A stretch of DNA of 64,000 bases from a bacterium (GTDB taxonomy: Bacteria > Patescibacteriota > Patescibacteriia > SBBB01). Of this stretch, positions 13,652 to 60,440 are shown one piece after another. The stretch is taken from positions 98,170 to 162,169 of the forward strand of contig SBBB01000025.1 of assembly GCA_005239895.1 (NCBI GenBank), read 5' to 3'. Every line of letters begins with the position of its first letter. Positions within the stretch are counted from its first letter, which is position 1. The notes beneath the pieces were generated by a model. It did no database searches, had not been told where the DNA came from, and saw only the letters and a program-made list of their open reading frames with translations. A program made the position numbers and the translations under genes.

Positions 13652-13732
13652 TTAGCTTCTTAGCTTTTTAGCTTCTTAGCTTTTTAGCTTTTTAGCTTTT
13701 TAGCTTGTAGCTTATTAGATTTTTAAATTTTA
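13652..13732. repeat. Tandem array (TAGCTTYTT)n of about 9 units
   Basis: ttagcttct tagcttttt agcttct tagcttttt agcttttt agcttttt... read directly. It is the inverted partner of the array at 14603-14665. Confidence 0.7.
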
Positions 13733-13752
13733 ATTCAATAAACTTTATAATT

Positions 13753-14307
13753 TTATAAACTGTCTACTTTCTTGACGTGTGACTGAATATAAGCGTGCAC
13801 TAGCGCGCTAATTTTATTTGAAATAATTTGGGGATCTGCAACTTGCTCAAAAACAAAACGGTTTTTTTCAGCCGCGGTTTGAATATACACATTACCGTAA
13901 TTAAATATCGTTGGCAAAATGCCGTTTATTTCTATGGTTACATCTTGAACATTACGAAAAGATAGCTCAGATGTCACCCTAGAAAAAACACCGTTTTGTT
14001 CCGTGTTTACTATACGTTCATTAGTAATAATCCAAACATCTAAGTAATAATCTATGAAAGCATGATATGCAAATAAACACACATAAATATAATACAAGCT
14101 AATTAAAAAAGCAACCAAGGCATACACCTCATCCGAAATATTATCTATAAAAATATTAAAATATATAGCTAGGCCATATAGAGCCACTGGTCCGATTGCT
14201 AATAATATCCAAAAGGAAATATATCCCAAAAATATAAGCCAATGGCGACGAACAAGCAATATAATTTCTTCATTGGGATTTTTGTGAGGAATATAATGTT
14301 TTATCAT
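13753..14307 (-). CDS. Membrane protein with a bacterial PH-like (DUF304/YdbS-like) domain
   Basis: EEIILLVRRHWLIFL followed by two TM helices and a beta-rich tail, typical of the bPH_2 family. Confidence 0.5.
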   Translation of the reverse strand: MIKHYIPHKNPNEEIILLVRRHWLIFLGYISFWILLAIGPVALYGLAIYFNIFIDNISDEVYALVAFLISLYYIYVCLFAYHAFIDYYLDVWIITNERIVNTEQNGVFSRVTSELSFRNVQDVTIEINGILPTIFNYGNVYIQTAAEKNRFVFEQVADPQIISNKISALVHAYIQSHVKKVDSL

Positions 14308-14338
14308 ATGCCAAAGTTAAAAATTATAAAGCAGAAAG

Positions 14339-14542
14339 TTATAAAGTTGAAAAATCGCTAAATTTTTGAAATGACTGTTGTAAAATTAGCACAGAAATAA
14401 ATATATAAACTATAGTTACCCATATGGCCACTGCGCTATATTTACTAAATCTCATTAATTGAAATATATTAAACAGACTTAATAAACCCCATATACCCAA
14501 TAATCCCAAATAAATAATATAACCCAATGTTACAATAGTCAT
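14339..14542 (-). CDS. Small two-TM membrane protein
   Basis: 67-aa hydrophobic ORF co-oriented with the PH-like gene inside the repeat-flanked segment. Confidence 0.4.
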   Translation of the reverse strand: MTIVTLGYIIYLGLLGIWGLLSLFNIFQLMRFSKYSAVAIWVTIVYIFISVLILQQSFQKFSDFSTL

Positions 14543-14602
14543 ATAAAGTTAAAAAGTCTAAAGCTTGTAAAGTTGTAGAGTTTATTGAATTAAAATTTAA
14601 AA

Positions 14603-14665
14603 ATCTAAGAAGCTACAAGCTAAAAAGCTAAGAAGCTAAAAAGCTAAGAAGCCAAGAAGCTATTT
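14603..14665. repeat. Tandem array (AAAAAGCTAAGAAGCTA)n, reverse complement of the array at 13652-13732
   Basis: About 90% identical to the reverse complement of 13652-13732, including the shared start AAAAATCTAA.AAGCTACAAGCTAAAAAGCTA. Confidence 0.7.
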
Positions 14666-27367: not shown

Positions 27368-28108
27368 TTATAAACTCCCCATAAATACTTTTTCTAAAAT
27401 ATCATTTCCTAATAATTCTTGCGATGTTTTATGCACCACAATTTTTCCTTTGTCTAAAACATAAGCACGATTAGTAATTTCAAGCAAAGATTTAGTATTA
27501 TGTTCAACTACCATAATCGCAGTTTTATGTCTCTCGTTGATTTCTTTAATCTTTGCAAATACTTCTTTAACAATTTTTGGAGCTAGACCTAAAGATGGTT
27601 CATCCAAAAGCAAAACTTTAGGATCAGTCATGAGTCCTCTAGCCAAAGCTACCATTTGTTGTTGCCCACCTGACAATACCCCTGCTTTTTCTTTTCTCTT
27701 GGATTTCAACGCTGGAAAAGTATCCAAAACCTCAGTCATTTGTCTTTTAACTTTTTTAGAGTCTCTAAAAATATAACCGCCAATTTCTAAATTTTCTTCA
27801 ACAGTCATGCTACTAAAAACGCGTCTGCCTTGAGGTACAAAAACAATACCCATTTCAACTATTTCATAAGAAACTGGTTTTAATTCTCTTTCATGCCAAA
27901 ATACTTTACCTCCCTGAATGGGGGTTAAACCAAAAATAGTTTTTAACATTGTTGATTTACCAGCGCCATTAGGTCCCATTAAAGCAATAATTTCACCTTC
28001 ATCAATATCTATATCAACCCCATCTAAGGCCTTAACTCCACCATAATGAACGGAAATATTTTTTAATTGTAATAAAACTTCTTTGTTCATTTTTTTAATG
28101 TTATTCAC
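27368..28108 (-). CDS. livF: Branched-chain amino acid ABC transporter ATP-binding protein LivF
   Basis: GPNGAGKST Walker A, LSGGQQQM signature, LLLDEPSLGL Walker B. Part of the liv cluster. Confidence 0.85.
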   Translation of the reverse strand: MNNIKKMNKEVLLQLKNISVHYGGVKALDGVDIDIDEGEIIALMGPNGAGKSTMLKTIFGLTPIQGGKVFWHERELKPVSYEIVEMGIVFVPQGRRVFSSMTVEENLEIGGYIFRDSKKVKRQMTEVLDTFPALKSKRKEKAGVLSGGQQQMVALARGLMTDPKVLLLDEPSLGLAPKIVKEVFAKIKEINERHKTAIMVVEHNTKSLLEITNRAYVLDKGKIVVHKTSQELLGNDILEKVFMGSL

Positions 28109-28140
28109 TAGTCAAAACTCATTGTGTTTTATACTTAATT

Positions 28141-28330
28141 GTCATTCCCGCGAAGGCGGGAATCCAGGTTTATTCAAATATAAAAAATAAATAAAATTTA
28201 AACTTTTTTCAAAAAGTCCTCTATAAAAAAATAATTATTAGATTACAGTTGTAGTTTAATATTAATATTAATTGGTGCAATAATGATAAGTGTACATGCT
28301 TCTGGATTCCCGCCTTCGCGGGAATGACAA
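28141..28330. mobile_element. MITE-like element copy 2 (inverted orientation relative to copies 1 and 3)
   Basis: TIRs GTCATTCCCGCGAAGGCGGGAATCCAGG (28141-28168) and CTGGATTCCCGCCTTCGCGGGAATGAC (28302-28328). The internal sequence is the reverse complement of copy 1/3 internal sequence. Lies between livK and livF. Confidence 0.65.
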
Positions 28331-28396
28331 GGGTGGATGTAAATTCAAATTTATGTAATAATTCTTAATTCATAATTCATAATTCATAATTCTTTT

Positions 28397-29578
28397 TTAA
28401 TCTTCGTATTTAACAAACTTTCCATCCTTAACTGTTTTTAACATTATGGGTTTGTTAACATCACCATTCTTGTCAAAAGTAGTTAAACCACCCATTCCAG
28501 GATAATCTTTAACTACGTATAAATAATCTCTAATACAATCGGTTTTTTCCCCGCCGCACTTTTGAATAGCATCGCTAATCAACATAACAGCATCATAGGC
28601 ATTGGCCTCAAAAGCATCAGCATCTTTATTATATTTTATTTTATAAGTTTCGTTAAAAGCTTGAACCTTGGGATCATTTAAATCAAAAACCGGACTGCTA
28701 AAAATAACCCCCTCAGCAACTAAACCAATATCTAAAAATTCTTTAGTTCCAATAGCCGCACTGCCAGTGATTAAAGTTTCAGGAGCCAGTTCTTTAATTT
28801 GTTTTACTAAATTGCCAGCGTCTTTACCCAAAGCCACAGCTAGATAAAACGTTTTAGCGCCACTATTTTTGGCTTTTAAAATATCAGTTCTAAAATCAGA
28901 AGTATTTTCATCGTATTGATGATCCATGCTTATTTGACCACCTAATTTTTCAAATTCCTCTTTGAAAAATTTACTATAACTAATGGAGTTAGCTGATTTA
29001 GCAGTAAATAACGCAAGTTTATCAATGTTTTTATTTTTTAGAAATTTAGCCATTCCTTTTCCATGACTAACAGCGCTTTCTCTATTTCGAAAAACATAAT
29101 CACCAGCTTGAGAAATCTCGTCAGCCGCAGCAATAGGGGTAAATAAAATAACTTTACTTTGTTCAGTAATAGGGGCAATAGCTAAAACATCATTAGAACG
29201 AACTGGACCAATAACCACCTTAACTTTATCAATATCAACTAACTTTCTAGCGACTGAAACTGCTGAGTCTACCTCGCTTAAAGTATCTTCATAAACAACT
29301 TCCAATTTTAAGTTTCCCTGTTTATTAATTTTTTCTACAGCTAAATCTATACCATTTTTTAATCTTTCACCTAAAGAAGCGCCCTTGCCTGTAAAAGTTA
29401 AAGCCGCGCCAATTTTAATTGGCTCTTTAATTACCGGTTGATTTGTTTTAAATGTTTCTTTAACACTTGACTCATTTTTATTCATTCCATACCAAAACCC
29501 TAACATAACAATTAAAAATAAAACCACACCAATTATGATTTTTGTCCCATTAGAAGTTTTTGCGTCATTTGTATTCAT
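28397..29578 (-). CDS. livK: Branched-chain amino acid ABC transporter substrate-binding protein LivK/LivJ
   Basis: N-terminal TM/signal anchor, then a periplasmic-binding-protein type I fold pattern (IKIGAALTFTGKGASLG). Confidence 0.8.
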   Translation of the reverse strand: MNTNDAKTSNGTKIIIGVVLFLIVMLGFWYGMNKNESSVKETFKTNQPVIKEPIKIGAALTFTGKGASLGERLKNGIDLAVEKINKQGNLKLEVVYEDTLSEVDSAVSVARKLVDIDKVKVVIGPVRSNDVLAIAPITEQSKVILFTPIAAADEISQAGDYVFRNRESAVSHGKGMAKFLKNKNIDKLALFTAKSANSISYSKFFKEEFEKLGGQISMDHQYDENTSDFRTDILKAKNSGAKTFYLAVALGKDAGNLVKQIKELAPETLITGSAAIGTKEFLDIGLVAEGVIFSSPVFDLNDPKVQAFNETYKIKYNKDADAFEANAYDAVMLISDAIQKCGGEKTDCIRDYLYVVKDYPGMGGLTTFDKNGDVNKPIMLKTVKDGKFVKYED

Positions 29579-29793
29579 ACATTTTATGTTTAAAAATTAT
29601 TCTACTGCATACCACTGCATACCACGTTAGAGTATTAAAGACTTCTAACGGGGATCATATATTTTATAGTTGAAACTTAAATTATTACCATACTATAATC
29701 AGTATCTTATACAACTTTGGAAAATTTGTCTACTTAGTACTTTAAACATTTTCCGTAATTCTTATATCTTAAATCGTAAATCTTAAATCTATT

Positions 29794-30549
29794 TTACTCT
29801 CCTAAATACGCTTCAACTACTTCTCTTTTTGCTAAAACTTTATCAGGGGCACCTTCGGCTAATAACCTGCCTTCGTCCATAACAAAAATATAATCACAAA
29901 GTTCACGCATTAAACCCATATCGTGTTCAATTAAAATTACAGTTTTATTTTCTTTTTTAAATTCTTGAATAATATCCGCAAGCATTTTTTTCATTTCTGG
30001 AAAAAGTCCAGCAAAAGGTTCGTCTAATAAATAAATGTCGGCTTTCATGGCTAATATCCTAGCAATTTCCAAAAGCTTTCTTTGCCCGTAAGATAGATTA
30101 ATAACTAATTGATCTTTTTTGCTCCAAAGATTAATTTTATGCAAAACTTCTTCGGCAATTTTTAAATGATAAGTTGTGTGTTTTTCAAAAAGAGAACCAA
30201 AAATATTTCTTTCAGTTAAAACAACCAAAATATTATCCAACACGGTCATTTGTTCAAAAAGCCTAACATTTTGAAAGGTTCGCGTAATTCCGTAAAAAGA
30301 AATTTGGCGCGATAATATTTTATTAAATTTTTGAGCTTCATTAATTACCACTTCTCCAGCATCTATAGATAACATGCCACTCAATAAATTTATAAATGTA
30401 GTTTTCCCCGATCCATTTGGGCCTACTATACCAGTAATACTCCCCCTTTCTATGTTTATAGAAAGATGATCAACAGCGTGAACACCACCAAATTGTTTTA
30501 TTAAATTTTTAGTTTCAATAGCTAACATAAACAAGTTAAAAGTTCGCAA
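29794..30549 (-). CDS. livG: Branched-chain amino acid ABC transporter ATP-binding protein LivG
   Basis: LIKQFGGVHAV, GPNGSGKTT, LSYGQRKLLEIAR and LLDEPFAG motifs. Confidence 0.85.
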   Translation of the reverse strand: MRTFNLFMLAIETKNLIKQFGGVHAVDHLSINIERGSITGIVGPNGSGKTTFINLLSGMLSIDAGEVVINEAQKFNKILSRQISFYGITRTFQNVRLFEQMTVLDNILVVLTERNIFGSLFEKHTTYHLKIAEEVLHKINLWSKKDQLVINLSYGQRKLLEIARILAMKADIYLLDEPFAGLFPEMKKMLADIIQEFKKENKTVILIEHDMGLMRELCDYIFVMDEGRLLAEGAPDKVLAKREVVEAYLGE

Positions 30550-30582
30550 AGTTATAAAGTTCGTAAAATTTTAAAAAAATAG

Positions 30583-30867
30583 TTATTTTTCTAAAACAAA
30601 CCTTTCCACTAATTTGTCATTGAATTTTACTATAGAGAACCACTCATCAAGTGGCCTTGTAAATAATTCAGCGTCAGCATTTTGATAAAGCGGTTTATAC
30701 ACAACCATCCAAATATCATCATTAGAATGAATTGCAAGACCAACTACTTCATACTTGTCACCTTTATAATGAAGATATTTTTCGCCTTTCTTTGGTGTTC
30801 TTTCTGGCATTTTAGGTATCCATCCTTTTGTCATAATAAATATATTATCACAAACAAAACAATACAA
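30583..30867 (-). CDS. DUF1653-family small protein
   Basis: YLHYKGDKYEVVGLAIHSNDDIWMVVYKPLY...LFTRPLDEW matches the DUF1653 consensus. The true start may be an internal Met. Confidence 0.55.
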   Translation of the reverse strand: MYCFVCDNIFIMTKGWIPKMPERTPKKGEKYLHYKGDKYEVVGLAIHSNDDIWMVVYKPLYQNADAELFTRPLDEWFSIVKFNDKLVERFVLEK

Positions 30868-30873
30868 GAAGCA

Positions 30874-31824
30874 TTAAGAGCAAGACCGAGAAACTCCGTC
30901 TGCTAATCCTAGACATGTATTCATATTTTTATCAGAAAATTTTAAAGTCGAAATTTCTGGACTAGCCCGATGATTTAATACAGTTAAACCAGTATCAATT
31001 CGTATCTGATCTGGATATTTATAAGTTGTACTGTGTAGTTCATGACGCAAAACTTCTAAAGATAAATCGTTGTTATCACTATCAGTAATAGGAACAATAA
31101 GGAAGGGATGATCAAATGTTAAACGATTACCACCAAAACTACGCTCACTAAAAGCAATACCAATCGCAACCCTTATATTCTTCTGGGCAACTTCTTTTGC
31201 AAAATGAGACCTAGATATAATAAAACCCTGCGGTAATTGTTCAGTATTATTAAAACGACCTGTAGCATCATAATAAGCAACAAAGGCTCTATGAAAACCT
31301 TCTGGTCTTTGCATAGATAAATCCACTAAAGAATCTTTTTGCCAATCTATATGACCTAAATATTTAGTATTACAAATCTCGGCTAATTTTTTTGCCCATT
31401 CAATGGCGTAATAATCTGGAGGAAGAGATATATCAATTTTATCTTTATTTTTATTAATATAAACTGTGGCGCAACCACACTCTGCGTGACTATACACGCC
31501 TTTAATGTTTTTTCCTTTTAAAGCTTCTACCACTTGCTCTTGATGCAAAATACCAGATCCACCAATTCTAATACCACCACCAGATATACCTTCGTCAATA
31601 CAACGAACACAATTATCATTTTCTCTAAACATTGAATCTGTATTTATATTAGTATCTTCAATATATTTTTTAAAACCTTTTTCCCACAAAGACTTAAACT
31701 TATTTTTTTGTTCTTTCCAATATTCTTCAATATTAAAATGTTCTTCAGGCTCAGATAATTTATGCATATTTTTTATGTTTACAAATAATAATTTAAAAAC
31801 AATCAAAAAATAATACACCCACAC
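30874..31824 (-). CDS. Hypothetical Cys/His-containing protein (CxxC...HAECGC), function unknown
   Basis: 316-aa ORF with no recognisable family. The first 19 aa are possibly a spurious extension (internal MHKLSEPEE). Confidence 0.5.
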   Translation of the reverse strand: MWVYYFLIVFKLLFVNIKNMHKLSEPEEHFNIEEYWKEQKNKFKSLWEKGFKKYIEDTNINTDSMFRENDNCVRCIDEGISGGGIRIGGSGILHQEQVVEALKGKNIKGVYSHAECGCATVYINKNKDKIDISLPPDYYAIEWAKKLAEICNTKYLGHIDWQKDSLVDLSMQRPEGFHRAFVAYYDATGRFNNTEQLPQGFIISRSHFAKEVAQKNIRVAIGIAFSERSFGGNRLTFDHPFLIVPITDSDNNDLSLEVLRHELHSTTYKYPDQIRIDTGLTVLNHRASPEISTLKFSDKNMNTCLGLADGVSRSCS

Positions 31825-31974
31825 AATATAAGTGTCAAGTAAATTTATCTACCTAATATAACCTGTAAATTAAAAGAGCCCCTATGTTGCGATTGTAGGG
31901 GCTCACTATGTTAATGTTGCTTTTTTATAATGCGCATTTCGGTTAAAAAAACCAAAAAGCAGCAACTCTTCTAT

Positions 31975-32181
31975 TTATTTATCTGTCCTGGATGTTAATT
32001 TTACCTGCCATATATCAGTTAAACATAACATGAGTAAGAAAAAACACACTATCGACACTAAGCCTGCTACCTGAATGTCTGTAAAAAGAAACACTATAAA
32101 ACTTATGGAACAAAGAGCCGAAGAAAGATATACAGATACTACTAAAAAACTGGTTCGTATTTGCGTTATAAGATTTTTCAT
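31975..32181 (-). CDS. Small two-TM membrane protein
   Basis: SD AGGAGAA 5 nt upstream of the ATG; 68 aa, hydrophobic. Confidence 0.45.
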   Translation of the reverse strand: MKNLITQIRTSFLVVSVYLSSALCSISFIVFLFTDIQVAGLVSIVCFFLLMLCLTDIWQVKLTSRTDK

Positions 32182-32532
32182 GATGTTCTCCTAATTATTT
32201 ACAAGGGTTGATTAAATTTCAAAACTTCAAAATTAAACTAGAGATACGCCATAAGCATTTTTAGTTTATATTTAAGTTTACCGTAAATATATTTTTTGTC
32301 AACCTCGTTAGAGATTATAAAAACCTATCTTATCTATATTTTAGACAGAATTATAGCTACCAATTATTTAACCATAAATATAAAATATAAACCTCTAACT
32401 GGGTCAACCAAATATTTTTTAAAAAACAGGTAGGGAGTCATCCAATAAAGACTCCCTACCACCATAATAAACCGCAATAAACCGCGGTAATATTTTACCA
32501 AAAAAATACCATCATCTTCGTGAAAATTGATA

Positions 32533-32928
32533 TCACCCAAACGAACAATCAAGATCACGAAAGTTAATCAATATTCCTTCTGGTAACTTGGTTTTTAGCT
32601 CTTTTATCTTGGTTGCTAATCCATCCGAACACTGATTGTCGCCAATGTTTCGAGAAAGATTATAAACATTGGCTGTGCCCCAATAAACACGCTCCTGATA
32701 AATAGCCTTTTGGCCATAAGTGTTTATAACCACAAACCGAAGCATGTGTCCAAAATATAACTCAGGACCTGTGCTCCCAATTTGATTGCTATTGTTTCTT
32801 ACGACCCAGTATGACTCTGCCTCTACAGATTTGCAGCTTGACTCTTTCGCAATCTCTACAAGTTCTTCCATGGTCTCAACCTCGTACGGAAAAAACTGTA
32901 AAATTAAACGTTTAATAAACTCTAACAT
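32533..32928 (-). CDS. Hypothetical protein (131 aa from the Met with SD)
   Basis: SD AAAGGAGG 6 nt upstream of the internal ATG (MLEFIKR...). The ORF-track start at 32967 has no SD. Local GC is elevated. Confidence 0.5.
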   Translation of the reverse strand: MLEFIKRLILQFFPYEVETMEELVEIAKESSCKSVEAESYWVVRNNSNQIGSTGPELYFGHMLRFVVINTYGQKAIYQERVYWGTANVYNLSRNIGDNQCSDGLATKIKELKTKLPEGILINFRDLDCSFG

Positions 32929-33064
32929 GGTGGCCTCCTTTCGTGCGTCGGTTCTACTTAGAGCCATTGCCTAAGCTCTCTATAAATATAACATATTATT
33001 TAATTTTAACAAATTTTGTTGTTTTTCAAACAATTGCATTTTAAGTATATATAGAATAAACTAT

Positions 33065-33099
33065 GAAGCTACTTGGAAGTTTCGCTTCCAAGTAGCTTC
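33065..33099. repeat. REP-like hairpin GAAGCTACTTGGAAG-TTTCG-CTTCCAAGTAGCTTC overlapping the RayT stop codon
   Basis: Perfect 15-bp arms; contains GTAG; sits immediately 3' of the transposase gene. Confidence 0.6.
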
Positions 33100-33767
33100 T
33101 AATCGACTTCTAAAGCTTTTTTTCTAGACTGTGTGTCCTGCCAAGATTCTATAGCAAAGTCTAGATATATTTTTGGGTTTTTAAATTGATCTAATATAAT
33201 TTTTGTATCACATAAACCTTTCTCGTTTTTAATATATTCTTCTAAGCTAGATTTACTTAAACTAAGAATTTTATTTCCGGATTTATCTCGATTGTTCATA
33301 TTTATATAAGCGCTTAAATGAATCAGGTATCGATTATCAGATATATGTTTTGATTGAAAATTCCCCTGAAATAACACACCATTTCTTTTATATTTTTCAT
33401 TGAAATATTTAGTATAACCACCAATCCGTTGCATAAATTTTTCAATTCCTTTTTCTACAACAGGGGTGATAAGAAAATGAAAATGGTTTGGATTTATACA
33501 AAAAGCTATAATTGAAACCAACTTGGAAGTTTCGCTTCCAAGTTTTTCTTTGTCTTTTTTAAAAGAAAATTCATAAATACTCCCAATGGGTTCTAATCTA
33601 TTAAAATCTTTTATACTTTTTAACAAACGATCTAAATCAAATTTATCAAGAATTATTTTTCTTTTATCAACACCACGATTGTATATGTGATAATATTCTC
33701 CAATAATAAATTCATGTTTTCTAGTACTCATAAATAAATAATAACATATTTGGTTAATTAGTAACAA
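33099..33767 (-). CDS. IS200/IS605-like HUH Y1 transposase of the REP-associated (RayT-like) type
   Basis: YHIYNRGVDKRKIIL, HUH motif NHFHFLITP, and GVLFQGNFQSKHISDNRYLIHLSAYINMN (matching the G.LWQGR.KS...YL..RYIELNP pattern of RayT/TnpA-REP). The real start is probably the second Met (MSTRKHEF). Confidence 0.65.
   Translation of the reverse strand: MLLINQICYYLFMSTRKHEFIIGEYYHIYNRGVDKRKIILDKFDLDRLLKSIKDFNRLEPIGSIYEFSFKKDKEKLGSETSKLVSIIAFCINPNHFHFLITPVVEKGIEKFMQRIGGYTKYFNEKYKRNGVLFQGNFQSKHISDNRYLIHLSAYINMNNRDKSGNKILSLSKSSLEEYIKNEKGLCDTKIILDQFKNPKIYLDFAIESWQDTQSRKKALEVD
33520..33544. repeat. REP-like hairpin AACTTGGAAGTTTCGCTTCCAAGTT located inside the RayT coding sequence
   Basis: Encodes LGSETSKL in frame; same core as the 33065 and 15875 copies. 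Confidence 0.5.
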
Positions 33768-33813
33768 CCACTTAGGAGCAAGGCACCTAAGTTAGTAGGA
33801 AGTAACTCTCAGT

Positions 33814-34698
33814 TTACAATTTATACTCCCCTATTAAGCCTTGCGGCCTATAAAGCATTAATAAAATTAAAATAACTCCATATACTACTTGCCTCATTTG
33901 AGCGGCTATGTCTGGTGGAAAACCAACAAAACGCAAAATTTCAGGCAATAATATTAAAAACAATGCTCCCAAAACTGCGCCACGCAAATTAGCTAGTCCT
34001 CCTAAAATAATAATAGCTAGAATAAATATGGATTCGTGTATAGTAAAACTAGTGGGGTCAATAAATGTAATATAAGAAGCGAAAAGCGAACCAGCGATGG
34101 ATGCCATAACAGCAGCCACAATAAAAATCATTAATTTAAAATATAAAACATTGTAACCAAAGACCTCTATGGCCTTTTCATCTTCTCTAATAGCTTTCAA
34201 AACCCTACCAAACGAAGAATTAATTATAAAATATGACAAATAATAAATTAAAATTAAAAACGCAAAAGTAAGAATTAAAAATGCGAAATTATTCGAAATT
34301 AAAAATTGGAAATTAAAAATTTTTATTTCCGGTCTAGCAATGCCTGGTATACCCAAAGGCCCTCTCGTAACACTTTGCCAATTTAATAAAATCGCAAAAA
34401 TAATAGTATTAAAACCCAAAGTGCCCAAAGCATAATAATCGCCTTTAAATTTTGATAATACTAAACCAATCAACAAACTAATAACAGCGGTTATAATCAT
34501 GCCCAATATAATTGAAACAAAAAATCCCAATTTAAATTGAGTTAATAAAATAGCGGTAGTATAAGCTCCAATACCATAAAAAGCAGCATGAGTTACAGAT
34601 AACAATCCAGTATAACCTACAACTAAATTTAAGCTAACCACAAGCATGGCGTAAATAGCGAACAAAATTGAGAGATGAACTAAGTATTCCATAAACAA
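33814..34698 (-). CDS. livM: Branched-chain amino acid ABC transporter permease LivM
   Basis: Polytopic permease with the LivM-type pattern GYTGLLSVTHAAFYGIGAYT. Confidence 0.8.
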   Translation of the reverse strand: MFMEYLVHLSILFAIYAMLVVSLNLVVGYTGLLSVTHAAFYGIGAYTTAILLTQFKLGFFVSIILGMIITAVISLLIGLVLSKFKGDYYALGTLGFNTIIFAILLNWQSVTRGPLGIPGIARPEIKIFNFQFLISNNFAFLILTFAFLILIYYLSYFIINSSFGRVLKAIREDEKAIEVFGYNVLYFKLMIFIVAAVMASIAGSLFASYITFIDPTSFTIHESIFILAIIILGGLANLRGAVLGALFLILLPEILRFVGFPPDIAAQMRQVVYGVILILLMLYRPQGLIGEYKL

Positions 34699-34700
34699 TA

Positions 34701-34842
34701 AAACCCTAAACTCTAAACACTAAATACTAAACACTAAACAAAATAATTATAACACAAACTTTATACTCTAAATCTACCACAAATTCCACTATAAGCAAAA
34801 GAATAAACCCTAAACTCTAAACAAACTTAAAAACTAAAATAC
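34701..34842. repeat. Two direct copies of AAACCCTAAACTCTAAACA, the first extended into a (ACTAAAY)n array
   Basis: 34701-34744 and 34805-34842 read directly. Inverted partner at 35211-35255. Confidence 0.6.
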
Positions 34843-35205
34843 TTACGATCTACATTTTTCTACTATAGAACCAAAAATCTTCATCAGCTCAGTAACTTCC
34901 TGAATCAACTCATCTTTCTCTCTATGTTGATCTAACTTAGGCTCACTTAAAACCAACCAATACCTACTTTCTTTAGCTTCTTTCCTAGATATTTTTATTC
35001 TCATAATAAAATCTTTTTTACTTAATGATTCTTCGACTTCAATATAATTAGCCCCCACTGATCCAGCCGATCTAACCAATTGCTTACCAATTTCAATATT
35101 AGATATAGTTTTGGATAAATTATTTACATAAACATTAGCTCTCTTAGCAAATTTAAGAGTTCTGTCCCCTAAGTCATATTGTTTTGTATTTTGAATTTTG
35201 ATCAT
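34843..35205 (-). CDS. Four-helix-bundle protein of the 23S rRNA intervening-sequence protein family
   Basis: RSAGSVGANYIEVEES...SRKEAKESRYWL matches the TIGR02436/PF05635 signature (GS..SI..NIAEG...E..YWL). Inserted between livH and livM. Confidence 0.65.
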   Translation of the reverse strand: MIKIQNTKQYDLGDRTLKFAKRANVYVNNLSKTISNIEIGKQLVRSAGSVGANYIEVEESLSKKDFIMRIKISRKEAKESRYWLVLSEPKLDQHREKDELIQEVTELMKIFGSIVEKCRS

Positions 35206-35210
35206 TTGAA

Positions 35211-35255
35211 TTTGTTTAGTGTTTAAAATTTAGTATTTAGTGTTTTATTTTCTAA
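35211..35255. repeat. (GTTTAGT)n array, reverse complement of the 34701-34744 array; overlaps the livH stop
   Basis: TTTGTTTAGTGTTTAAAATTTAGTATTTAGTGTTTT is the reverse complement of AAAACACTAAATACTAAATTTTAAACACTAAACAAA. Confidence 0.6.
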
Positions 35256-36117
35256 TGATTCCGGTCGGTCTGAATATCAAAAATAGTATTAATAATCCAA
35301 AAGCAATGGCATCTTTCCATTCTCCGGATATTTTCCAAATACCAAAATTTTCTACAAAACCTAAAATAAACGCGCCCAGCACACCACCAAAAATACTCCC
35401 AATTCCACCAACAATAGAAGCAATAACACCCTTAAGCAGCAATCCTAATCCCATAGTTGGTTCAATACCAGTATCAAAACCAACTAAAATACCAGTTAAT
35501 CCAGCAATAGCTGAACCTATAAAAAACACCACACTGATTATCTTGTTAGTATTAATGCCAACTATTTTGGCTACTTCTTCATCGTCAGTCACAGCTCTGA
35601 CAGCTTTACCAAATTTAGTTTTATAAAGAAACAAAATCAGTCCGCATGCAACTGCAATAGCAGATATTAAAATAATCAGTTGGGTTTGAGTTATTAAACC
35701 ACCGAAAATATTAAAAATTTTTGAAGTGTCAATGTTAAATGAAAGCGTTTGAAATTGACTTGTAAATAAAATAGCAATTATGGCTTGAATGGCTGTAAAA
35801 GTTCCCAATGAAGCTACTAATAAAACCATACTGGACGCTTTTCTTTTTCTAAGCGGTAAATAAATAATTTTATCTAAAGCATAACCAAATAAACCAGTAA
35901 TTATAATACCTAAAACAACAGCTAGATATAAATTTAAACCCAAGGTTTTAGTAAAATAAAAAACTGAATAGCCAGCTATAGTTGCCATTACTCCGTGCGC
36001 TAGGTTAAAAAATTTAGTAACTCCGTAAATTAAATTAAAACCCAGAGAAATTAAAGCATAAACTGCTCCGGCAATAAGACTATTTAAAACCAATTGAGAA
36101 AAAATAGACATAGACAA
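35245..36117 (-). CDS. livH: Branched-chain amino acid ABC transporter permease LivH
   Basis: LivH-like polytopic permease (LNSLIAGAVYALISLGFNLIYG...). Confidence 0.85.
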   Translation of the reverse strand: MSMSIFSQLVLNSLIAGAVYALISLGFNLIYGVTKFFNLAHGVMATIAGYSVFYFTKTLGLNLYLAVVLGIIITGLFGYALDKIIYLPLRKRKASSMVLLVASLGTFTAIQAIIAILFTSQFQTLSFNIDTSKIFNIFGGLITQTQLIILISAIAVACGLILFLYKTKFGKAVRAVTDDEEVAKIVGINTNKIISVVFFIGSAIAGLTGILVGFDTGIEPTMGLGLLLKGVIASIVGGIGSIFGGVLGAFILGFVENFGIWKISGEWKDAIAFGLLILFLIFRPTGIIRK

Positions 36118-36120
36118 AAG

Positions 36121-36180
36121 TTGAAAGTTAAAAGTTTAAAGTTAAAAAGTTAAAGATTAGAAAGTTAACCCATTTTTTGT
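36121..36180. repeat. (AAAGTTAA)n tandem array
   Basis: ttgaaagttaaaagtttaaagttaaaaagttaaagattagaaagttaacc. Inverted partner at 36275-36320. Confidence 0.55.
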
Positions 36181-36196
36181 CATTATTGTAATTTTC

Positions 36197-36245
36197 TGTC
36201 ATTCCCGCGAAGGCGGGAATCCAGGAGCGTATTCAACGTGTAACC
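36197..36245. mobile_element. Solo MITE end (TIR CTGTCATTCCCGCGAAGGCGGGAATCCAGGAGCGTA plus about 15 nt), no partner TIR
   Basis: Identical to the copy-1 left TIR through AGCGTAT, then diverges; no right TIR within 300 bp. Confidence 0.55.
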
Positions 36246-36274
36246 CAGATTCACATAAAAATTAACAATAAATA

Positions 36275-36320
36275 ACCTTATCAACTTTCAACTTTCTAAC
36301 TCTAAATCTAAATATATAAT
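36275..36320. repeat. (CAACTTT/CTAAAT)n array, inverted relative to 36121-36180
   Basis: atcaactttcaactttctaactctaaatctaaat. Confidence 0.45.
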
Positions 36321-36436
36321 ATAAACAAAAGAAAGTAAACGCAATTAACTATTGTTTTTATTTTAATTTTTGCTAATATAAGTGCAGTTACACAAGACAG
36401 GTTTAGTGTTAGTCAATCTATACTAATAAATGGAGG

Positions 36437-37482: not shown

Positions 37483-39261
37483 TTACAACGAAGAAAGTTG
37501 TTCAATTTTCTTTTGAATTTTTTCTTCTTGACCGCGGCGAGCAAAATCATAATTACCTAAATTTGCCAACATGTATTCAGTGACCAAAGGATAAACTTTT
37601 TGTAATAATTTAAATTTTTCTTGTTCAATATATCTATAATCCGTATGACCTTCGGGAATAGTTCGAAGCTCAATTTCCCAAAAACATTCCCGTAAATTTT
37701 GGAATTGCATAAAACGAATACGATGTGCTAAACACGTCGCATATTGCGCCAACTCTAAATCGTGTTGCGCTATTTTATAATACAAATCCTCTACTTTATT
37801 TATAGCTGAAGAAAACTCGCTATCTAATTTAGATTTTATTAATTCTGGAGCTACGTCATAACTATGATCACAAGTAAAATTTTGCTTTTGTTGCGTAAGC
37901 ATACGATGACGGTGCAAATCGCGCCAAGCGCCCAAATTCATAACGATTTCAAATCTAACATAAATATTTTCAAAAGCTCGACTTACTTTTTGCCACCTAA
38001 ATTTCCTATCTTGTAAATGCACCTTTAAAATTTCTTTTTTCTCTTCAACTGTTAAAGCTTTAACGGTTTGCAAAATTTTATTCCACGAAAGATGATTATT
38101 TACAGCTGAATAAAGAATTCCCGTAATAATTTTATCTTCTCCGTCAGTGTCAAATTCAACTAACTGCACGCGCGGACCAGTTTCTACTTCTTTCAAACTA
38201 TCTTTAAATAACCCTTTTACTACTGGCACGGTTTGTTTATTTTTATGACTTAAATATTTTTGATACTCTTCAATCATGTCTTTTCTAGTTTCATCTTTAA
38301 TACGCCTTAAAAATGAAGGTGTAATTTTATTCAACTCTTGATAAGCCATTTCTCCTGCCCAACGAACTTCTCCTAAAGAATGCCCCAAAGAGCGATTGAT
38401 CATGTGCTCAAAAGATTGCCCGTTGCCAAAAAATGTTACTTGCGAAAGTGTGGCCATGGGCAAAAGCCCCCTTAAAATATCAAACGCCTTCTTTTCTACC
38501 ACGGATTTTTTTTCTTCAGGAAAACGATCTTGCAACCACGCGGAAAGTTTAGGTAAAAGATCAATATAAGTTTCAAATAAATTATCCATAACAGTTTTAT
38601 ACTCTGCATCTAATCCTATATCTTTGAGGGTTGGATCAATATAATACTGATATTGATTATTAATTTTTTGAGCATAATTAACATAGCGCGTGGATTTTTC
38701 AATCGGAGCCAAACCAATTCTCTGATCTTCAAAATGTTTAATCACAATTTGCGAAACCCCTGAAAAAGCAAGATGAGTACCTGCCATTTGCGCAATAGAA
38801 TCATCTCCGTACTGAGCCAACCATTTAATATAAAAAGAACGAGCGCGCGGATTAGCAAAAAACTCCAACAAAGAATGATCCTTAAAAAAATTTAAAAAAT
38901 CATAAAGTTCCTCGCCATATTTAATAGTAGCTTGCCAAGCTTCGCTGGTTTCATTCTCTTGTCGAACAGGATTTAAAAAAGGATCTATAAATTCACGCAA
39001 AAAAATATGTCGCAAATCCGTCGTGGCTCGACTGGATCGCGAACAAAGAGCGCCAATTAATTCGGGTGATAAAATTAGAGGCACATACACAGATTTGTCT
39101 AAATTAGTAAAAAACGGCTGTAAACGAAGCTTTTCTTTATCTGTATACTCGTCTTTTTGAAAAAGTGGTGCAAATTCTTCTAAAGAATGTTTATTAATCA
39201 TATAATTATTAGTACTATAGAATTTTTTAAACAAATTATCAAGATCTGGTGTTTTTGTCAC
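37483..39261 (-). CDS. thyX: FAD-dependent thymidylate synthase ThyX-like protein (long form)
   Basis: AWRDLHRHRMLTQQKQNFT contains the ThyX RHR-x7-S signature. At 592 aa it is about twice the canonical length. tmk and xth are nearby. Confidence 0.5.
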   Translation of the reverse strand: MTKTPDLDNLFKKFYSTNNYMINKHSLEEFAPLFQKDEYTDKEKLRLQPFFTNLDKSVYVPLILSPELIGALCSRSSRATTDLRHIFLREFIDPFLNPVRQENETSEAWQATIKYGEELYDFLNFFKDHSLLEFFANPRARSFYIKWLAQYGDDSIAQMAGTHLAFSGVSQIVIKHFEDQRIGLAPIEKSTRYVNYAQKINNQYQYYIDPTLKDIGLDAEYKTVMDNLFETYIDLLPKLSAWLQDRFPEEKKSVVEKKAFDILRGLLPMATLSQVTFFGNGQSFEHMINRSLGHSLGEVRWAGEMAYQELNKITPSFLRRIKDETRKDMIEEYQKYLSHKNKQTVPVVKGLFKDSLKEVETGPRVQLVEFDTDGEDKIITGILYSAVNNHLSWNKILQTVKALTVEEKKEILKVHLQDRKFRWQKVSRAFENIYVRFEIVMNLGAWRDLHRHRMLTQQKQNFTCDHSYDVAPELIKSKLDSEFSSAINKVEDLYYKIAQHDLELAQYATCLAHRIRFMQFQNLRECFWEIELRTIPEGHTDYRYIEQEKFKLLQKVYPLVTEYMLANLGNYDFARRGQEEKIQKKIEQLSSL

Positions 39262-60133: not shown

Positions 60134-60305
60134 AAAAATAACTACTATTCTAACCCGAGATATATTCCAAATTTCGTTTATTACATTTATAATTTTATTT
60201 TGGGCAGAATTACTCTATCAAGGATTCGTCAGTTCTTATATTAATTTGAGTCTGATGTTGTTTATAGTTTTAATAAGCGCTATTATGTATTTATACACAG
60301 AATAA
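60084..60305 (+). CDS. Small two-TM protein (overlaps the previous ORF)
   Basis: 73-aa hydrophobic ORF. Confidence 0.3.
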   Translation: MISKKLRLFLKINMLNKKITTILTRDIFQISFITFIILFWAELLYQGFVSSYINLSLMLFIVLISAIMYLYTE

Positions 60306-60440
60306 GATTTAAGATTTAAGGTTTTTTTGTCATCCTTGGTGGTAAAAAGTTAAAAGCCTTTAGATCACTAGACTCAGAGAGTCATTGAACCGCTAGATCC
60401 CGAGAGACCCTCTGAACTCTAAAGTCTGAAAGCCTGAAGG

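What the first reader, a model, noticed from the sequence alone, without database searches (positions are those of the whole stretch)
34701..35255. 23S rRNA intervening-sequence-family four-helix-bundle gene as a self-contained cassette
Proteins of this family (GSxxSIxxNIAEG...YWL) typically reside in rRNA intervening sequences or other mobile contexts. Here one lies between livH and livM, tightly flanked on both sides by inverted (ACTAAAY)n arrays, and the right array overlaps the livH stop codon. No SD precedes either this gene or livM. This is the cleanest example of the cassette architecture.
Basis: partly seen in the sequence, partly recalled or inferred. Interest (0 to 1): 0.55.

Follow-up and report, generated by a model that had tools for sequence, protein, structure and literature searches.

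The report
IVS-type gene cassette splitting liv operon

Summary
Window 34843-35205 (-) encodes an intact TIGR02436/PF05635 four-helix-bundle protein between livH and livM, flanked by inverted (CTAAAYN)n arrays. The upstream array contains the livH stop codon.

Comparison shows a ~550-nt insertion. About 50 related metagenome loci have livH and livM one base apart. Others carry seven different IVP genes at that junction, each with its own array unit, or ORF-less array remnants.

Among 81 close homologues from many phyla, the 5' flank is four in-phase heptamers ending AAACAAATTCAA|ATG. The 3' flank is the inverse. Neighbouring genes are co-oriented (70/73 upstream, 67/76 downstream). The protein is under purifying selection (dN/dS about 0.1).

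The layout matches the Coxiella 23S rRNA IVS: tandem heptamers before the S23p start codon, in a stem cut by RNase III. No rRNA is involved here.

Best reading: a promoter-less, IVS-type selfish cassette co-transcribed with the operon, whose arms pair. RNase III processing and the way it moves are inferred, not shown.

The missing Shine-Dalgarno sequence is uninformative, because only 3 of 55 genes in the window have one. I found no paper describing this architecture outside rRNA. Novelty: a new variant of a known kind.

The parts
35245..36117 (-). livH-type ABC permease gene, upstream neighbour, intact. Its stop codon (35245-35247) lies in the first repeat unit of the cassette's 5' arm.
   Evidence: PF02653 154.5 bits; NCBIfam LivH/UrtB. 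Full-length alignment to relatives at 62-78% identity.
35206..35247 (-). 5' arm. On the coding strand it reads TAAAACACTAAATACTAAATTTTAAACACTAAACAAATTCAA and abuts the IVP start codon. It is made of heptamer units (AAAnnCn) in the register conserved across the family.
   Evidence: Family consensus AAATcCgAAAttCgAAAttCgAAAtaCgAAACAAATTCAA|ATG, with lag-7 autocorrelation 0.49.
34843..35205 (-). IVP / S23p / TIGR02436 four-helix-bundle protein gene: 120 aa, basic (pI 9.5), intact.
   Evidence: PDB 2RLD at E = 4e-12, and 9e-32 with a profile; 2GSC at 1.7e-9. AlphaFold2 pLDDT 92 with four helices. Foldseek TM 0.70-0.79 to 2RLD/2GSC. dN/dS about 0.1.
34805..34830 (-). Proximal partial 3' array (GTTTGTTTAGAGTTTAGGGTTTA on the coding strand). 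It shares a 17-nt exact direct repeat with the end of the distal arm (34701-34717).
   Evidence: (D2, I3). Also present in sister genome L169.
34743..34804 (-). Spacer between the proximal array and the distal arm. It has no match elsewhere, and the sister genome has a different sequence at this position.
34699..34747 (-). Distal 3' arm, (RTTTAGN)n, the pairing partner of the 5' arm. It ends 6 nt before the livM ATG.
   Evidence: I1, I5; 33-bp stem in both MFE and centroid; 33 of 42 Watson-Crick pairs, window starting 95 nt after the stop.
33814..34692 (-). livM-type ABC permease gene, downstream neighbour, intact. The start is taken as ATG 34692; the mechanical ORF list starts at TTG 34698.
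   Evidence: PF02653 159.7 bits; NCBIfam LivM 176 bits. Relatives start with MEYL at the corresponding ATG.

Best explanation
This is a selfish gene cassette of the same build as ORF-bearing rRNA intervening sequences (IVSs), but it sits in a protein-coding operon. The unit is about 550 nt: a 5' arm of tandem heptamers, an IVP (S23p, Avd-like four-helix-bundle) gene, and an inverse 3' arm. It was inserted into the one-base gap between the livH stop and the livM start, leaving both genes intact. SHOWN: it is an insertion; gene and arms travel together between genomes and phyla; the orientation follows the host genes; the protein is under purifying selection; the same junction has been occupied repeatedly by different family members, some of which decay to ORF-less arrays. 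INFERRED: the cassette has no promoter of its own and is transcribed from the liv promoter. In that transcript the two arms pair into a stem of about 35-45 bp with the IVP ORF in the loop. By analogy with the Coxiella IVS, RNase III cuts this stem, releasing an IVP message with a short A/C-rich leader and separating the livH and livM messages. The basic pentameric protein probably binds the arm duplex or hairpin, as Avd binds RNA stem-loops, and so serves the element's maintenance or movement. The step by which the DNA moves is unknown. Spread between related genomes by homologous recombination in the conserved flanking genes is likely.
For: Family membership. Insertion: in about 50 of the 65 or so related loci where both genes are visible, livH and livM are separated by stop + 1 nt, e.g. 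'AAA tagt ATGGAG'. The window has about 550 nt there. Unit travels together: a 79%-identical gene in a Wzy_C context has the same arms. 81 cassettes from Omnitrophota, Patescibacteria, Desulfobacterota, Nitrospirota, Planctomycetota, Gammaproteobacteria and others share in-phase heptamer arms. Cassettes 83-93% identical in nucleotides, in apparently different flanks, align only from about -57 nt before the ATG to +25..+81 nt after the stop. Arms pair: mean duplex energy -30.3 against -18.5 kcal/mol for shuffled arms. The variable base of the unit (CTAAA / CGAAA / CCAAA) matches between the two arms in 54 of 79 cassettes, against a permutation mean of 27.5 and maximum of 41. The window's long-range stem appears in both MFE and centroid folds. 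Co-orientation: the upstream neighbour is on the same strand in 70 of 73 cases and the downstream one in 67 of 76; the median distance from upstream stop to IVP ATG is 59.5 nt. No promoter-like or terminator-like site lies inside the cassette on the coding strand. Hot-spot turnover: seven different TIGR02436 genes with seven array units, plus four kinds of ORF-less remnant, occupy the same livH|livM junction, scattered over the livM tree. Purifying selection: dN 0.129 and dS 1.29 against L001. In the sister genome the orthologous cassette shows 0.74 identity at third codon positions and 0.92 at first and second positions, like livH and livM. IVS precedent: the Coxiella 23S IVS has 2-3 tandem heptamers (GACAGAT) directly before the S23p ATG, their number varies between strains, RNase III cuts at the first repeat, and the ORF is sense to the rRNA (PMC4990558). 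Avd is a positively charged pentamer 'similar to S23 ribosomal proteins' and binds RNA stem-loops (bioRxiv 10.1101/2023.10.23.563531).
Against: Nothing here shows transcription, RNase III cleavage or protein binding. Arm mismatches show no RNA-specific bias: 206 are G.U-type on the sense strand and 210 on the antisense strand, and sense and antisense duplex energies are equal. A purely DNA-level inverted repeat therefore explains the arms equally well. Cassette-specific complementarity beyond the shared family pattern is small in ungapped alignment: 27.3 against 26.1 of 42 pairs. The whole-cassette fold is only marginally more stable than shuffles (z = -1.75). Some family members have lost an arm and are tightly coupled to the next gene (L170), so the arms are not needed to keep the gene. 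No RNase III gene was seen among the window ORFs that were scanned. Neither a target-site duplication nor a recombinase was found.
Confidence: 0.6

Rival explanations
1. A DNA-level foldback or TIR element. The heptamer arrays are terminal inverted repeats, or ssDNA hairpins, recognised by a transposase supplied in trans (for example the IS200-like Y1/RAYT-type gene 1 kb away). The IVP gene is a passenger, and RNA pairing is irrelevant.
For: There is no G.U versus A.C asymmetry in arm mismatches, and both strands fold equally well. ORF-less array pairs resemble MITEs (L123, L150, L158, L149; window 36116-36325). A Y1_Tnp / REP-associated-transposase-like gene lies at 33099-33767. A second foldback-like element in the window, with 110-nt arms, carries non-IVP cargo.
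Against: The RAYT-like gene gave no hit at E <= 1e-4 in any of the 80 related liv loci, including those with cassettes. No transposase was seen in the few cassette neighbourhoods that were annotated. The cargo is an IVP-family gene in every ORF-bearing cassette examined, it is under purifying selection, and it is almost always co-oriented with host transcription; none of this is expected of a passive passenger. No target-site duplication was recognised.
Confidence: 0.22
2. A retro-mobile cassette. The sense transcript, folded by its arms, is copied by a reverse transcriptase supplied in trans, with IVP acting as an Avd-like cofactor, and the cDNA is integrated at operon junctions.
For: IVP is a homologue or structural relative of DGR Avd, an obligatory RT cofactor that binds RNA stem-loops. 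The strict sense orientation relative to host transcription is what an RNA intermediate would need.
Against: No Pfam reverse-transcriptase family was hit by any ORF scanned between roughly 25.9 and 43.5 kb of the window; two of those ORFs had no Pfam hit at all. Avd is not detected at sequence-profile level, and the fold match is weak (E 0.4-1.3). There are no cDNA hallmarks such as an A-tail or 5' truncations.
Confidence: 0.08
3. A resident host gene that was always part of the liv operon (for example a regulator or RNA-processing module) and was lost in most relatives. The arrays are ordinary low-complexity intergenic DNA of this AT-rich genome.
For: The cassette is vertically inherited and conserved in the sister genome. 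Heptamer and octamer arrays are common in the window's intergenic DNA.
Against: About 50 relatives have an exact stop + 1 nt + ATG junction, which repeated loss would not recreate. The occupied junctions hold seven different family members at 18-57% identity to one another, while livM is 68-80% identical to the window's. The arms accompany the gene into unrelated contexts and phyla. The CTAAAY pattern occurs nowhere else in the window.
Confidence: 0.04
4. The accessory gene (avd) of a diversity-generating retroelement, or a remnant of one.
For: PF05635 is the commonest Pfam next to DGR RTs, and Avd resembles this family (PMC10053308).
Against: No reverse-transcriptase family was hit among the flanking ORFs scanned, and the neighbours are liv permeases. 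Template/variable repeat pairs were not searched for specifically. The 80 homologous loci sit between co-oriented genes which, wherever annotated, were housekeeping genes.
Confidence: 0.02

Closest known systems
ORF-bearing 23S rRNA intervening sequences (Coxiella burnetii IVS with S23p; also Leptospira and Brucella IVSs)
   Same: The same protein family sits in the loop, sense to the host transcript, with no good ribosome-binding site. Tandem heptamer repeats lie directly before the start codon, with variable copy number. Flanking inverted repeats form a long stem. Distribution is sporadic and horizontal, and there is no recombinase gene (PMC4990558; window).
   Different: The element is not in an rRNA gene. 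It lies between two protein-coding genes of an ABC-transporter operon, and the window contains no rRNA. The ORF is intact and under purifying selection, whereas the Coxiella ORF is decaying. The arms are longer (4-6 units on both sides). RNase III processing is untested here.
DGR accessory protein Avd (Bordetella phage BPP-1 bAvd, PDB 4DWL / 8UB7)
   Same: A small, basic four-helix bundle. Its relatives 2RLD and 2GSC were each deposited with five chains. The predicted fold superposes on Avd at TM 0.6-0.75. The literature treats Avd as similar to S23 proteins and shows that it binds RNA stem-loops.
   Different: No reverse-transcriptase family was hit among the neighbouring ORFs scanned. There is no sequence-level match to Avd even with a profile. 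Avd genes are not described as flanked by inverted heptamer arrays.
Cyanobacterial STRR sequences (short tandemly repeated repetitive heptamers)
   Same: These are 7-bp tandem repeats at junctions between co-transcribed genes (for example hupS-hupL). They can form hairpins, and their function is unknown (PMC2670836). In Nostoc, Aulosira and Planktothrix plasmids, TIGR02436 genes are flanked by inverted heptamer arrays such as (AAATTCA)5 ... (TTTTGAA)5.
   Different: STRRs are described without any associated gene.
Foldback transposons (eukaryotic FB elements) and bacterial MITEs / REPINs
   Same: Long inverted termini built from short tandem sub-repeats surround a variable centre, and non-autonomous ORF-less derivatives exist (own knowledge for FB elements; window remnants).
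   Different: No transposase is linked to the element and no target-site duplication is seen. The cargo is always one small non-enzymatic-looking protein, and the orientation is tied to host transcription.

Membership tests
TIGR02436 / PF05635 (four-helix-bundle protein; '23S rRNA intervening sequence protein'; S23p) | HMM score above the curated cut-off | tested here: met
   PF05635 48.5 bits against 33.8; TIGR02436 67.2 bits against 24.
TIGR02436 / PF05635 | Four-helix-bundle fold like the solved members 2RLD and 2GSC | tested here: met
   phmmer to 2RLD at 4e-12; profile 9e-32 to 2RLD and 1.7e-9 to 2GSC. AF2 model pLDDT 92 with helices 13-28, 34-58, 63-86 and 91-119. Foldseek TM 0.70-0.79.
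TIGR02436 / PF05635 | Homopentameric ring assembly | not tested
   Only a monomer was modelled. 2RLD and 2GSC each hold five chains, and the pentamer is reported in the literature.
rRNA intervening sequence (IVS) | Located inside a 23S (helix 25 or 45) or 16S rRNA gene | tested here: not met
   The cassette lies between livH and livM. Rfam finds no rRNA in the window. No rRNA motif was found in the 80 homologous loci.
rRNA intervening sequence (IVS) | Flanking inverted repeats that form an extended stem enclosing the insert | tested here: met
rRNA intervening sequence (IVS) | [quoted passage not shown] | tested here: met
   compared with PMC4990558. The unit sequence differs: CTAAAYN here, GACAGAT in Coxiella.
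rRNA intervening sequence (IVS) | Excision from the transcript by RNase III without re-ligation | not testable with these tools
   This needs RNA end mapping or an in-vitro cleavage assay.
DGR Avd | Adjacent DGR-type reverse transcriptase and a TR/VR repeat pair | tested here: not met
   No reverse-transcriptase family was hit among ORFs scanned from about 25.9 to 43.5 kb; two of them had no Pfam hit. TR/VR repeats were not specifically searched for.
TIR transposon / MITE | Terminal inverted repeats | tested here: met
TIR transposon / MITE | Target-site duplication and a cognate transposase | tested here: inconclusive
   No duplication is recognisable at filled versus empty junctions. The only nearby transposase-like gene (Y1/RAYT-like, 33099-33767) gave no hit at cassette loci elsewhere.
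Integron gene cassette | A single attC at the 3' end and an integron integrase with attI nearby | tested here: not met
   The arms lie on both sides and are tandem arrays. No integrase was found among the scanned ORFs.
Known anti-phage defence systems (PADLOC) | Match to a defence-system protein model | tested here: not met
   No hit for the IVP or for four neighbouring ORFs.

The most novel reading that the evidence does not exclude
IVP cassettes may be a widespread, undescribed class of autonomous bacterial mobile elements. Their only protein would be an Avd-like pentameric four-helix bundle that recognises the element's own heptamer-array arms and drives or guides insertion at the stop/start junction of co-transcribed genes; rRNA hairpin loops would be just one tolerated target. 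Their ORF-less derivatives would then account for much of the heptamer-repeat DNA at gene junctions in CPR genomes, and possibly for the cyanobacterial STRR sequences.
Probability: 0.25. Interest if true: 0.9.

Novelty: new variant of a known kind. Interest (0 to 1): 0.66.

Why it matters
rRNA intervening sequences and their S23p/IVP ORFs have been known since about 1990, but neither their function nor their means of movement has been explained. The family was later renamed "four helix bundle protein" because most members are not in rRNA.

This locus and its relatives show three things. First, the real unit is the gene plus two in-phase inverted heptamer arrays. Second, it colonises the tightest operon junctions across many phyla, in the sense orientation. 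Third, one junction can be hit or replaced again and again.

That turns a vague "selfish element" label into testable material. There are filled and empty sites, defined ends, a conserved inner-stem sequence (AAACAAATTCAA / TTGAATTTGTTT), and a single candidate protein related to a known nucleic-acid-binding cofactor.

It also offers an origin for the unexplained short-repeat arrays that fill intergenic DNA in CPR bacteria, and perhaps for STRR repeats in cyanobacteria. Annotators should note that "four helix bundle protein" genes inside operons are insertions.

Tried and rejected
- **Source contig:** an exact-sequence look-up of the window IVP and of its identical database entry P0001 found nothing on record. 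The rest of the source genome could therefore not be searched for paralogues.
- **Paralogues or remnants in the window:** none were found by tblastn or by a family HMM on the six-frame translation.
- **Phages as vectors:** one weak hit in the phage collection and none in IMG/VR. Plasmid hits were only distant cyanobacterial and Bacteroidota members.
- **Strand test for an RNA stem** (G.U against A.C mismatches; sense against antisense duplex energy): no asymmetry. The RNA-stem and DNA-repeat readings could not be separated.
- **Ungapped complementarity test with permuted partners:** only a small excess, 27.3 against 26.1 of 42 pairs, because all arms share one pattern. The variable-base test was more informative.
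- **Target-site duplication:** not recognisable at filled versus empty junctions, or at the ends of near-identical cassettes.
- **rRNA location of homologues:** none.
- **Rfam** (gathering threshold on the window; E <= 1 on the cassette): no RNA family. **PADLOC:** no defence model.
- **Sequence-profile link to Avd:** not detected.
- **RNase III gene in the window:** not found among the roughly 40 ORFs scanned.
- **Literature:** The library lacks most subscription-journal papers, including the original Leptospira IVS papers.
Full report
**1. What is in the sequence**

The window is AT-rich (32.7% G+C) and looks like a Patescibacteria (CPR) genome. The closest relatives of its genes come from groundwater and sediment metagenomes and CPR MAGs.

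On the minus strand lie three genes:
- livH, 35245-36117
- a 120-aa ORF, 34843-35205
- livM, 33814-34692

Both permeases match PF02653. Their best NCBIfam hits are LivH/UrtB and LivM.

The small ORF passes the curated cut-offs of PF05635 (48.5 against 33.8 bits) and TIGR02436 (67.2 against 24 bits). It matches the solved S23-family protein 2RLD at E = 4e-12, or 9e-32 with a profile, which also finds 2GSC at 1.7e-9. It is predicted with pLDDT 92 to be a four-helix bundle. That model superposes on 2RLD and 2GSC at TM 0.70-0.79. The protein is basic, with pI 9.5.

**2. The flanks**

On the coding strand, the 42 nt from the livH stop codon to the IVP start read TAAAACACTAAATACTAAATTTTAAACACTAAACAAATTCAA.

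The last 45 nt or so before livM read ...TTTGTTTAGTGTTTAGTATTTAGTGTTTAGAGTTTAGGG..., which is the inverse array.

- The repeat finder reports 50-nt arms at 78% complementarity, with a 26-nt core at 88%.
- The three-unit pattern CTAAAYNCTAAAYNCTAAA (up to 2 mismatches) occurs eight times in the window, all at these flanks. Shuffles give 0.33.
- Folding the 573-nt transcript pairs the 5' arm with the distal 3' array over about 33 bp, in both the minimum-energy and the centroid structure.
- The 3' side is bipartite: a partial array just after the stop codon (34805-34830), a 62-nt spacer, then the real partner arm (34699-34747).
- A sister genome (L169, GCA_964395945.1) has the orthologous cassette with the same bipartite layout but a different spacer.

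The absence of a Shine-Dalgarno sequence is real but says nothing. Only about 3 of 55 genes in the window have one.

**3. It is an insertion**

A metagenome scan with livM returned 80 loci with livM 68-80% identical.

In about 50 of the 65 or so loci where both genes are visible, the livH stop codon and the livM ATG are separated by a single base, for example 'AAA tagt ATGGAG'. The window has about 550 nt there.

Both flanking genes are full length, so the unit sits exactly between stop and start.

**4. Gene and arms form one unit that moves**

The protein search found more than 8000 homologues, many of them 60-79% identical and spread across distant phyla.

A 79%-identical copy (P0003, loci L001-L005) lies between a Wzy_C gene and an unrelated gene. 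It has the same arms: AAACACTAAATCCTAAACACTAAATCCTAAACAAACTCAA|ATG upstream and GGATTTGTTTAGAGTTTAGTATTTAGAGTTTAG downstream.

The genome-collection scan gave 80 loci from Omnitrophota, Patescibacteria, Desulfobacterota, Nitrospirota, Planctomycetota (Scalindua, Pirellulales), Gammaproteobacteria, Bacteroidales and others. Nearly all show the same layout:
- The 5' consensus, anchored at the start codon, is AAATcCgAAAttCgAAAttCgAAAtaCgAAACAAATTCAA|ATG.
- Lag-7 autocorrelation is 0.49, against roughly 0.25-0.38 at non-multiple lags.
- The 3' flank carries the inverse. Its best-pairing 42-nt window starts a median of 26 nt after the stop codon.

Evidence that the arms pair:
- Mean duplex energy is -30.3 kcal/mol, against -18.5 for shuffled arms.
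- The variable base of the unit (CTAAA, CGAAA, or CCAAA/ACAAA) agrees between the two arms of a cassette in 54 of 79 cases. Permutation gives a mean of 27.5 and a maximum of 41.
- Two cassettes 2 kb apart in one contig (L076) have different units, each matched within its own pair.

Evidence for the ends of the unit:
- Cassettes that are 83-93% identical in nucleotide sequence, in apparently different flanks, align only from about 57 nt before the ATG to 25-81 nt after the stop.

None of these loci is in an rRNA gene.

**5. Orientation and position**

With a simple ORF-based neighbour call, the upstream gene is on the same strand in 70 of 73 cases and the downstream gene in 67 of 76. The median distance from the upstream stop codon to the IVP ATG is 59.5 nt, roughly the length of the arm.

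Junctions that were examined:
- livH|livM
- proB|proA (L058)
- fpg|shikimate-kinase-like gene (L170)
- RND adaptor|RND permease (L182)
- helicase|N6-methylase (L180 and L181)
- cas2|cas1 (L167)

In genomes that use Shine-Dalgarno sequences, the 3' arm often ends just before the downstream gene's SD.

No promoter-like or terminator-like site lies inside the window's cassette on the coding strand. This is consistent with expression by read-through from the operon promoter.

**6. The junction is a hot spot with turnover**

Among the livM relatives, the same junction carries seven distinct TIGR02436 genes, each with its own array unit (membership confirmed for the six of these that were scanned; L119 was not scanned separately, and the window gene):

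| Locus | Array unit |
|---|---|
| window | CTAAAYN |
| L103, L104, L119, L122 | ACAAATTA |
| L116, L117, L152 | TTCTAAT |
| L164 | CAAAATN |
| L106 | ATAAAGTT |
| L134 | CTTATCT / GATAAAG |
| L159, L160 | TAAGATK |

The same junction also carries decayed or ORF-less forms:
- L103 has a truncated gene.
- L123 has 184 bp of arrays.
- L150/L151, L158/L161 and L149 have 40-47 bp of arrays.

On a neighbour-joining tree of livM, the occupied junctions fall in at least five places. One tight clade holds three different cassette types and two remnant types. This indicates repeated gain or replacement rather than one old insertion.

The same cassette with the same left junction appears in two separate clades (L103/L104 and L119/L122). 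That suggests transfer by homologous recombination in the conserved flanking genes. This is inference.

Array units that flank IVP genes in relatives also occur as orphan arrays at gene boundaries in the window:
- AAAGTT-type at 36116-36168 and 36281-36301
- TAAGATT-type at 60303-60324 and 29756-29790

These are probably remnants of the same class. That too is inference.

**7. The protein is kept by selection**

Against L001, dN = 0.129 and dS = 1.29. Other pairs give dN/dS of 0.05-0.24, with synonymous sites saturated.

In the sister genome, the orthologous gene is 0.92 identical at first and second codon positions and 0.74 at third positions. The flanking permease genes show the same pattern. 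The 5' arm is 78% identical and the 3' region 67%.

**8. Comparison with what is known**

*The Coxiella burnetii 23S rRNA IVS* is the closest documented structure (PMC4990558).
- An S23p ORF sits in the loop of a stem made by inverted repeats, sense to the rRNA.
- Two or three tandem heptamers (GACAGAT) lie directly before the start codon, and their number varies between strains.
- RNase III cuts at the first repeat.
- The authors review the old idea that IVSs are mobile elements whose ORF aids mobility.

The window element meets the structural criteria (protein family, stem, heptamers before the ATG, sense orientation). It fails the defining one, location in an rRNA gene. It therefore works like an IVS but is not one in the strict sense.

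*Avd, the DGR reverse-transcriptase cofactor,* is described as a positively charged pentamer similar to S23 proteins that binds RNA stem-loops. The predicted fold here resembles Avd only weakly (TM 0.6-0.75, E 0.4-1.3). A sequence profile does not find it. No reverse-transcriptase family was hit among the neighbouring ORFs scanned.

*Cyanobacterial STRR sequences* are 7-bp tandem repeats that form hairpins between co-transcribed genes and have no known function (PMC2670836). In Nostoc, Aulosira and Planktothrix plasmids, TIGR02436 genes are flanked by inverted heptamer arrays, for example (AAATTCA)5 ... (TTTTGAA)5. This is a lead, not a result.

Six of ten allowed full-text searches found no description of array-flanked IVP cassettes outside rRNA. 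A survey of rRNA insertions in CPR only notes that some encode 23S_rRNA_IVP.

**9. Mechanism: what is shown and what is inferred**

Shown:
- The element is an insertion.
- Gene and arms are one transferable unit.
- It is oriented with the host genes.
- The arms are complementary.
- The protein is under purifying selection.
- The junction is recurrently occupied, and cassettes decay.

Inferred:
- The cassette is co-transcribed with the operon.
- The arms pair in the RNA.
- RNase III cuts that stem.
- IVP binds the arm duplex.

The data do not separate an RNA stem from a DNA-level inverted repeat. Arm mismatches are 206 G.U-type on the sense strand against 210 on the antisense strand, and both strands fold equally well.

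How the DNA moves is unknown. No recombinase and no target-site duplication were found. The Y1/RAYT-like gene 1 kb away gave no hit in any of the 80 related liv loci, including those with cassettes. Some members have lost an arm and are simply coupled to the next gene (L170).

**10. Verdict**

The element is a new variant of a known kind: an IVS-type cassette in a protein-coding operon. The comparative picture goes beyond what the accessible literature describes:
- in-phase heptamer arms conserved across phyla
- sense insertion at stop/start junctions
- repeated occupation of one junction
- ORF-less remnants

Interest is moderately high. The case makes the old questions of what IVS elements and S23p/IVP proteins do, and how they spread, directly testable.

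Noticed in passing
window 13661-14662: A second foldback-like element. Its 110-nt inverted repeats (13661-13770 / 14553-14662) are 89% complementary, and their outer parts are octamer arrays, (TTAGCTTY)n / (RAAGCTAA)n. They enclose a bPH_2 membrane-protein gene (13753-14307, -) and a small membrane ORF of about 60 aa, not an IVP gene.
   Followed up: partly
window 28139-28167 / 28302-28330; 36196-36224: TTGTCATTCCCGCGAAGGCGGGAATCCAG occurs as a perfect 29-nt inverted pair 134 nt apart (REPIN-like). A third copy lies inside the array-flanked ORF-less element upstream of livH. A similar hairpin motif sits inside the array remnant at the livH|livM junction of L123.
   Followed up: partly
window 33099-33767 (-): An IS200-like Y1 / REP-associated tyrosine-transposase-like gene (PF01797 35 bits; NF047646 26.6 bits, below its cut-off) lies directly after livM. 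It gave no hit in any of the 80 related liv loci. The sister contig L169 has an unannotated 231-aa gene at the same place, whose identity was not checked.
   Followed up: partly
window 27368-36117: The liv operon is broken up. 3.26 kb (the RAYT-like gene, two ORFs without Pfam hits, and DUF1653) lie between livM and livG, where 30 relatives have overlapping genes. The substrate-binding-protein gene sits between livG and livF, with array-bearing spacers on both sides (28109-28396, 29579-29793). About 14 relatives also carry inserts of 0.3-2 kb at livM|livG.
   Followed up: partly
window 36116-36325: An ORF-less element between livH and the divergent pyrF gene. AAAGTT-type arrays (36116-36168) face AACTTT-type arrays (36281-36301), followed by a different array (TCTAAA, 36295-36325). 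The unit type matches the arms of the IVP cassette in L106.
   Followed up: partly
whole window: Only about 3 of 55 ORFs have an SD-like motif within 20 nt of the start, so this organism is largely SD-independent. Many starts are directly preceded by short-repeat arrays.
   Followed up: yes
L167 (Anabaena cylindrica pANACY.01), L179 (Pseudanabaena pPg_04): IVP-family genes lie between cas2 and cas1, or just upstream of cas1. This may explain why two CRISPR surveys list 23S_rRNA_IVP among CRISPR-linked domains (PMC10910872, PMC3936711).
   Followed up: no
L170-L177 (Staskawiczbacteria-type contigs): A 72%-identical IVP gene lies between fpg and a shikimate-kinase-like gene. It keeps only a short 5' arm, which contains the fpg stop codon, and has no 3' arm: the next gene starts 1 nt after its stop. 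The identical protein was read on 19 contigs, and all eight places displayed have this context.
   Followed up: partly
L103 vs L104: The same cassette at the same junction, but L103 has an internal deletion of about 107 nt that truncates the IVP gene. It is a snapshot of decay towards an ORF-less array pair.
   Followed up: no
window 37483-39261 (-): An unusually long ThyX-like protein (592 aa) with two Thy1 stretches.
   Followed up: no
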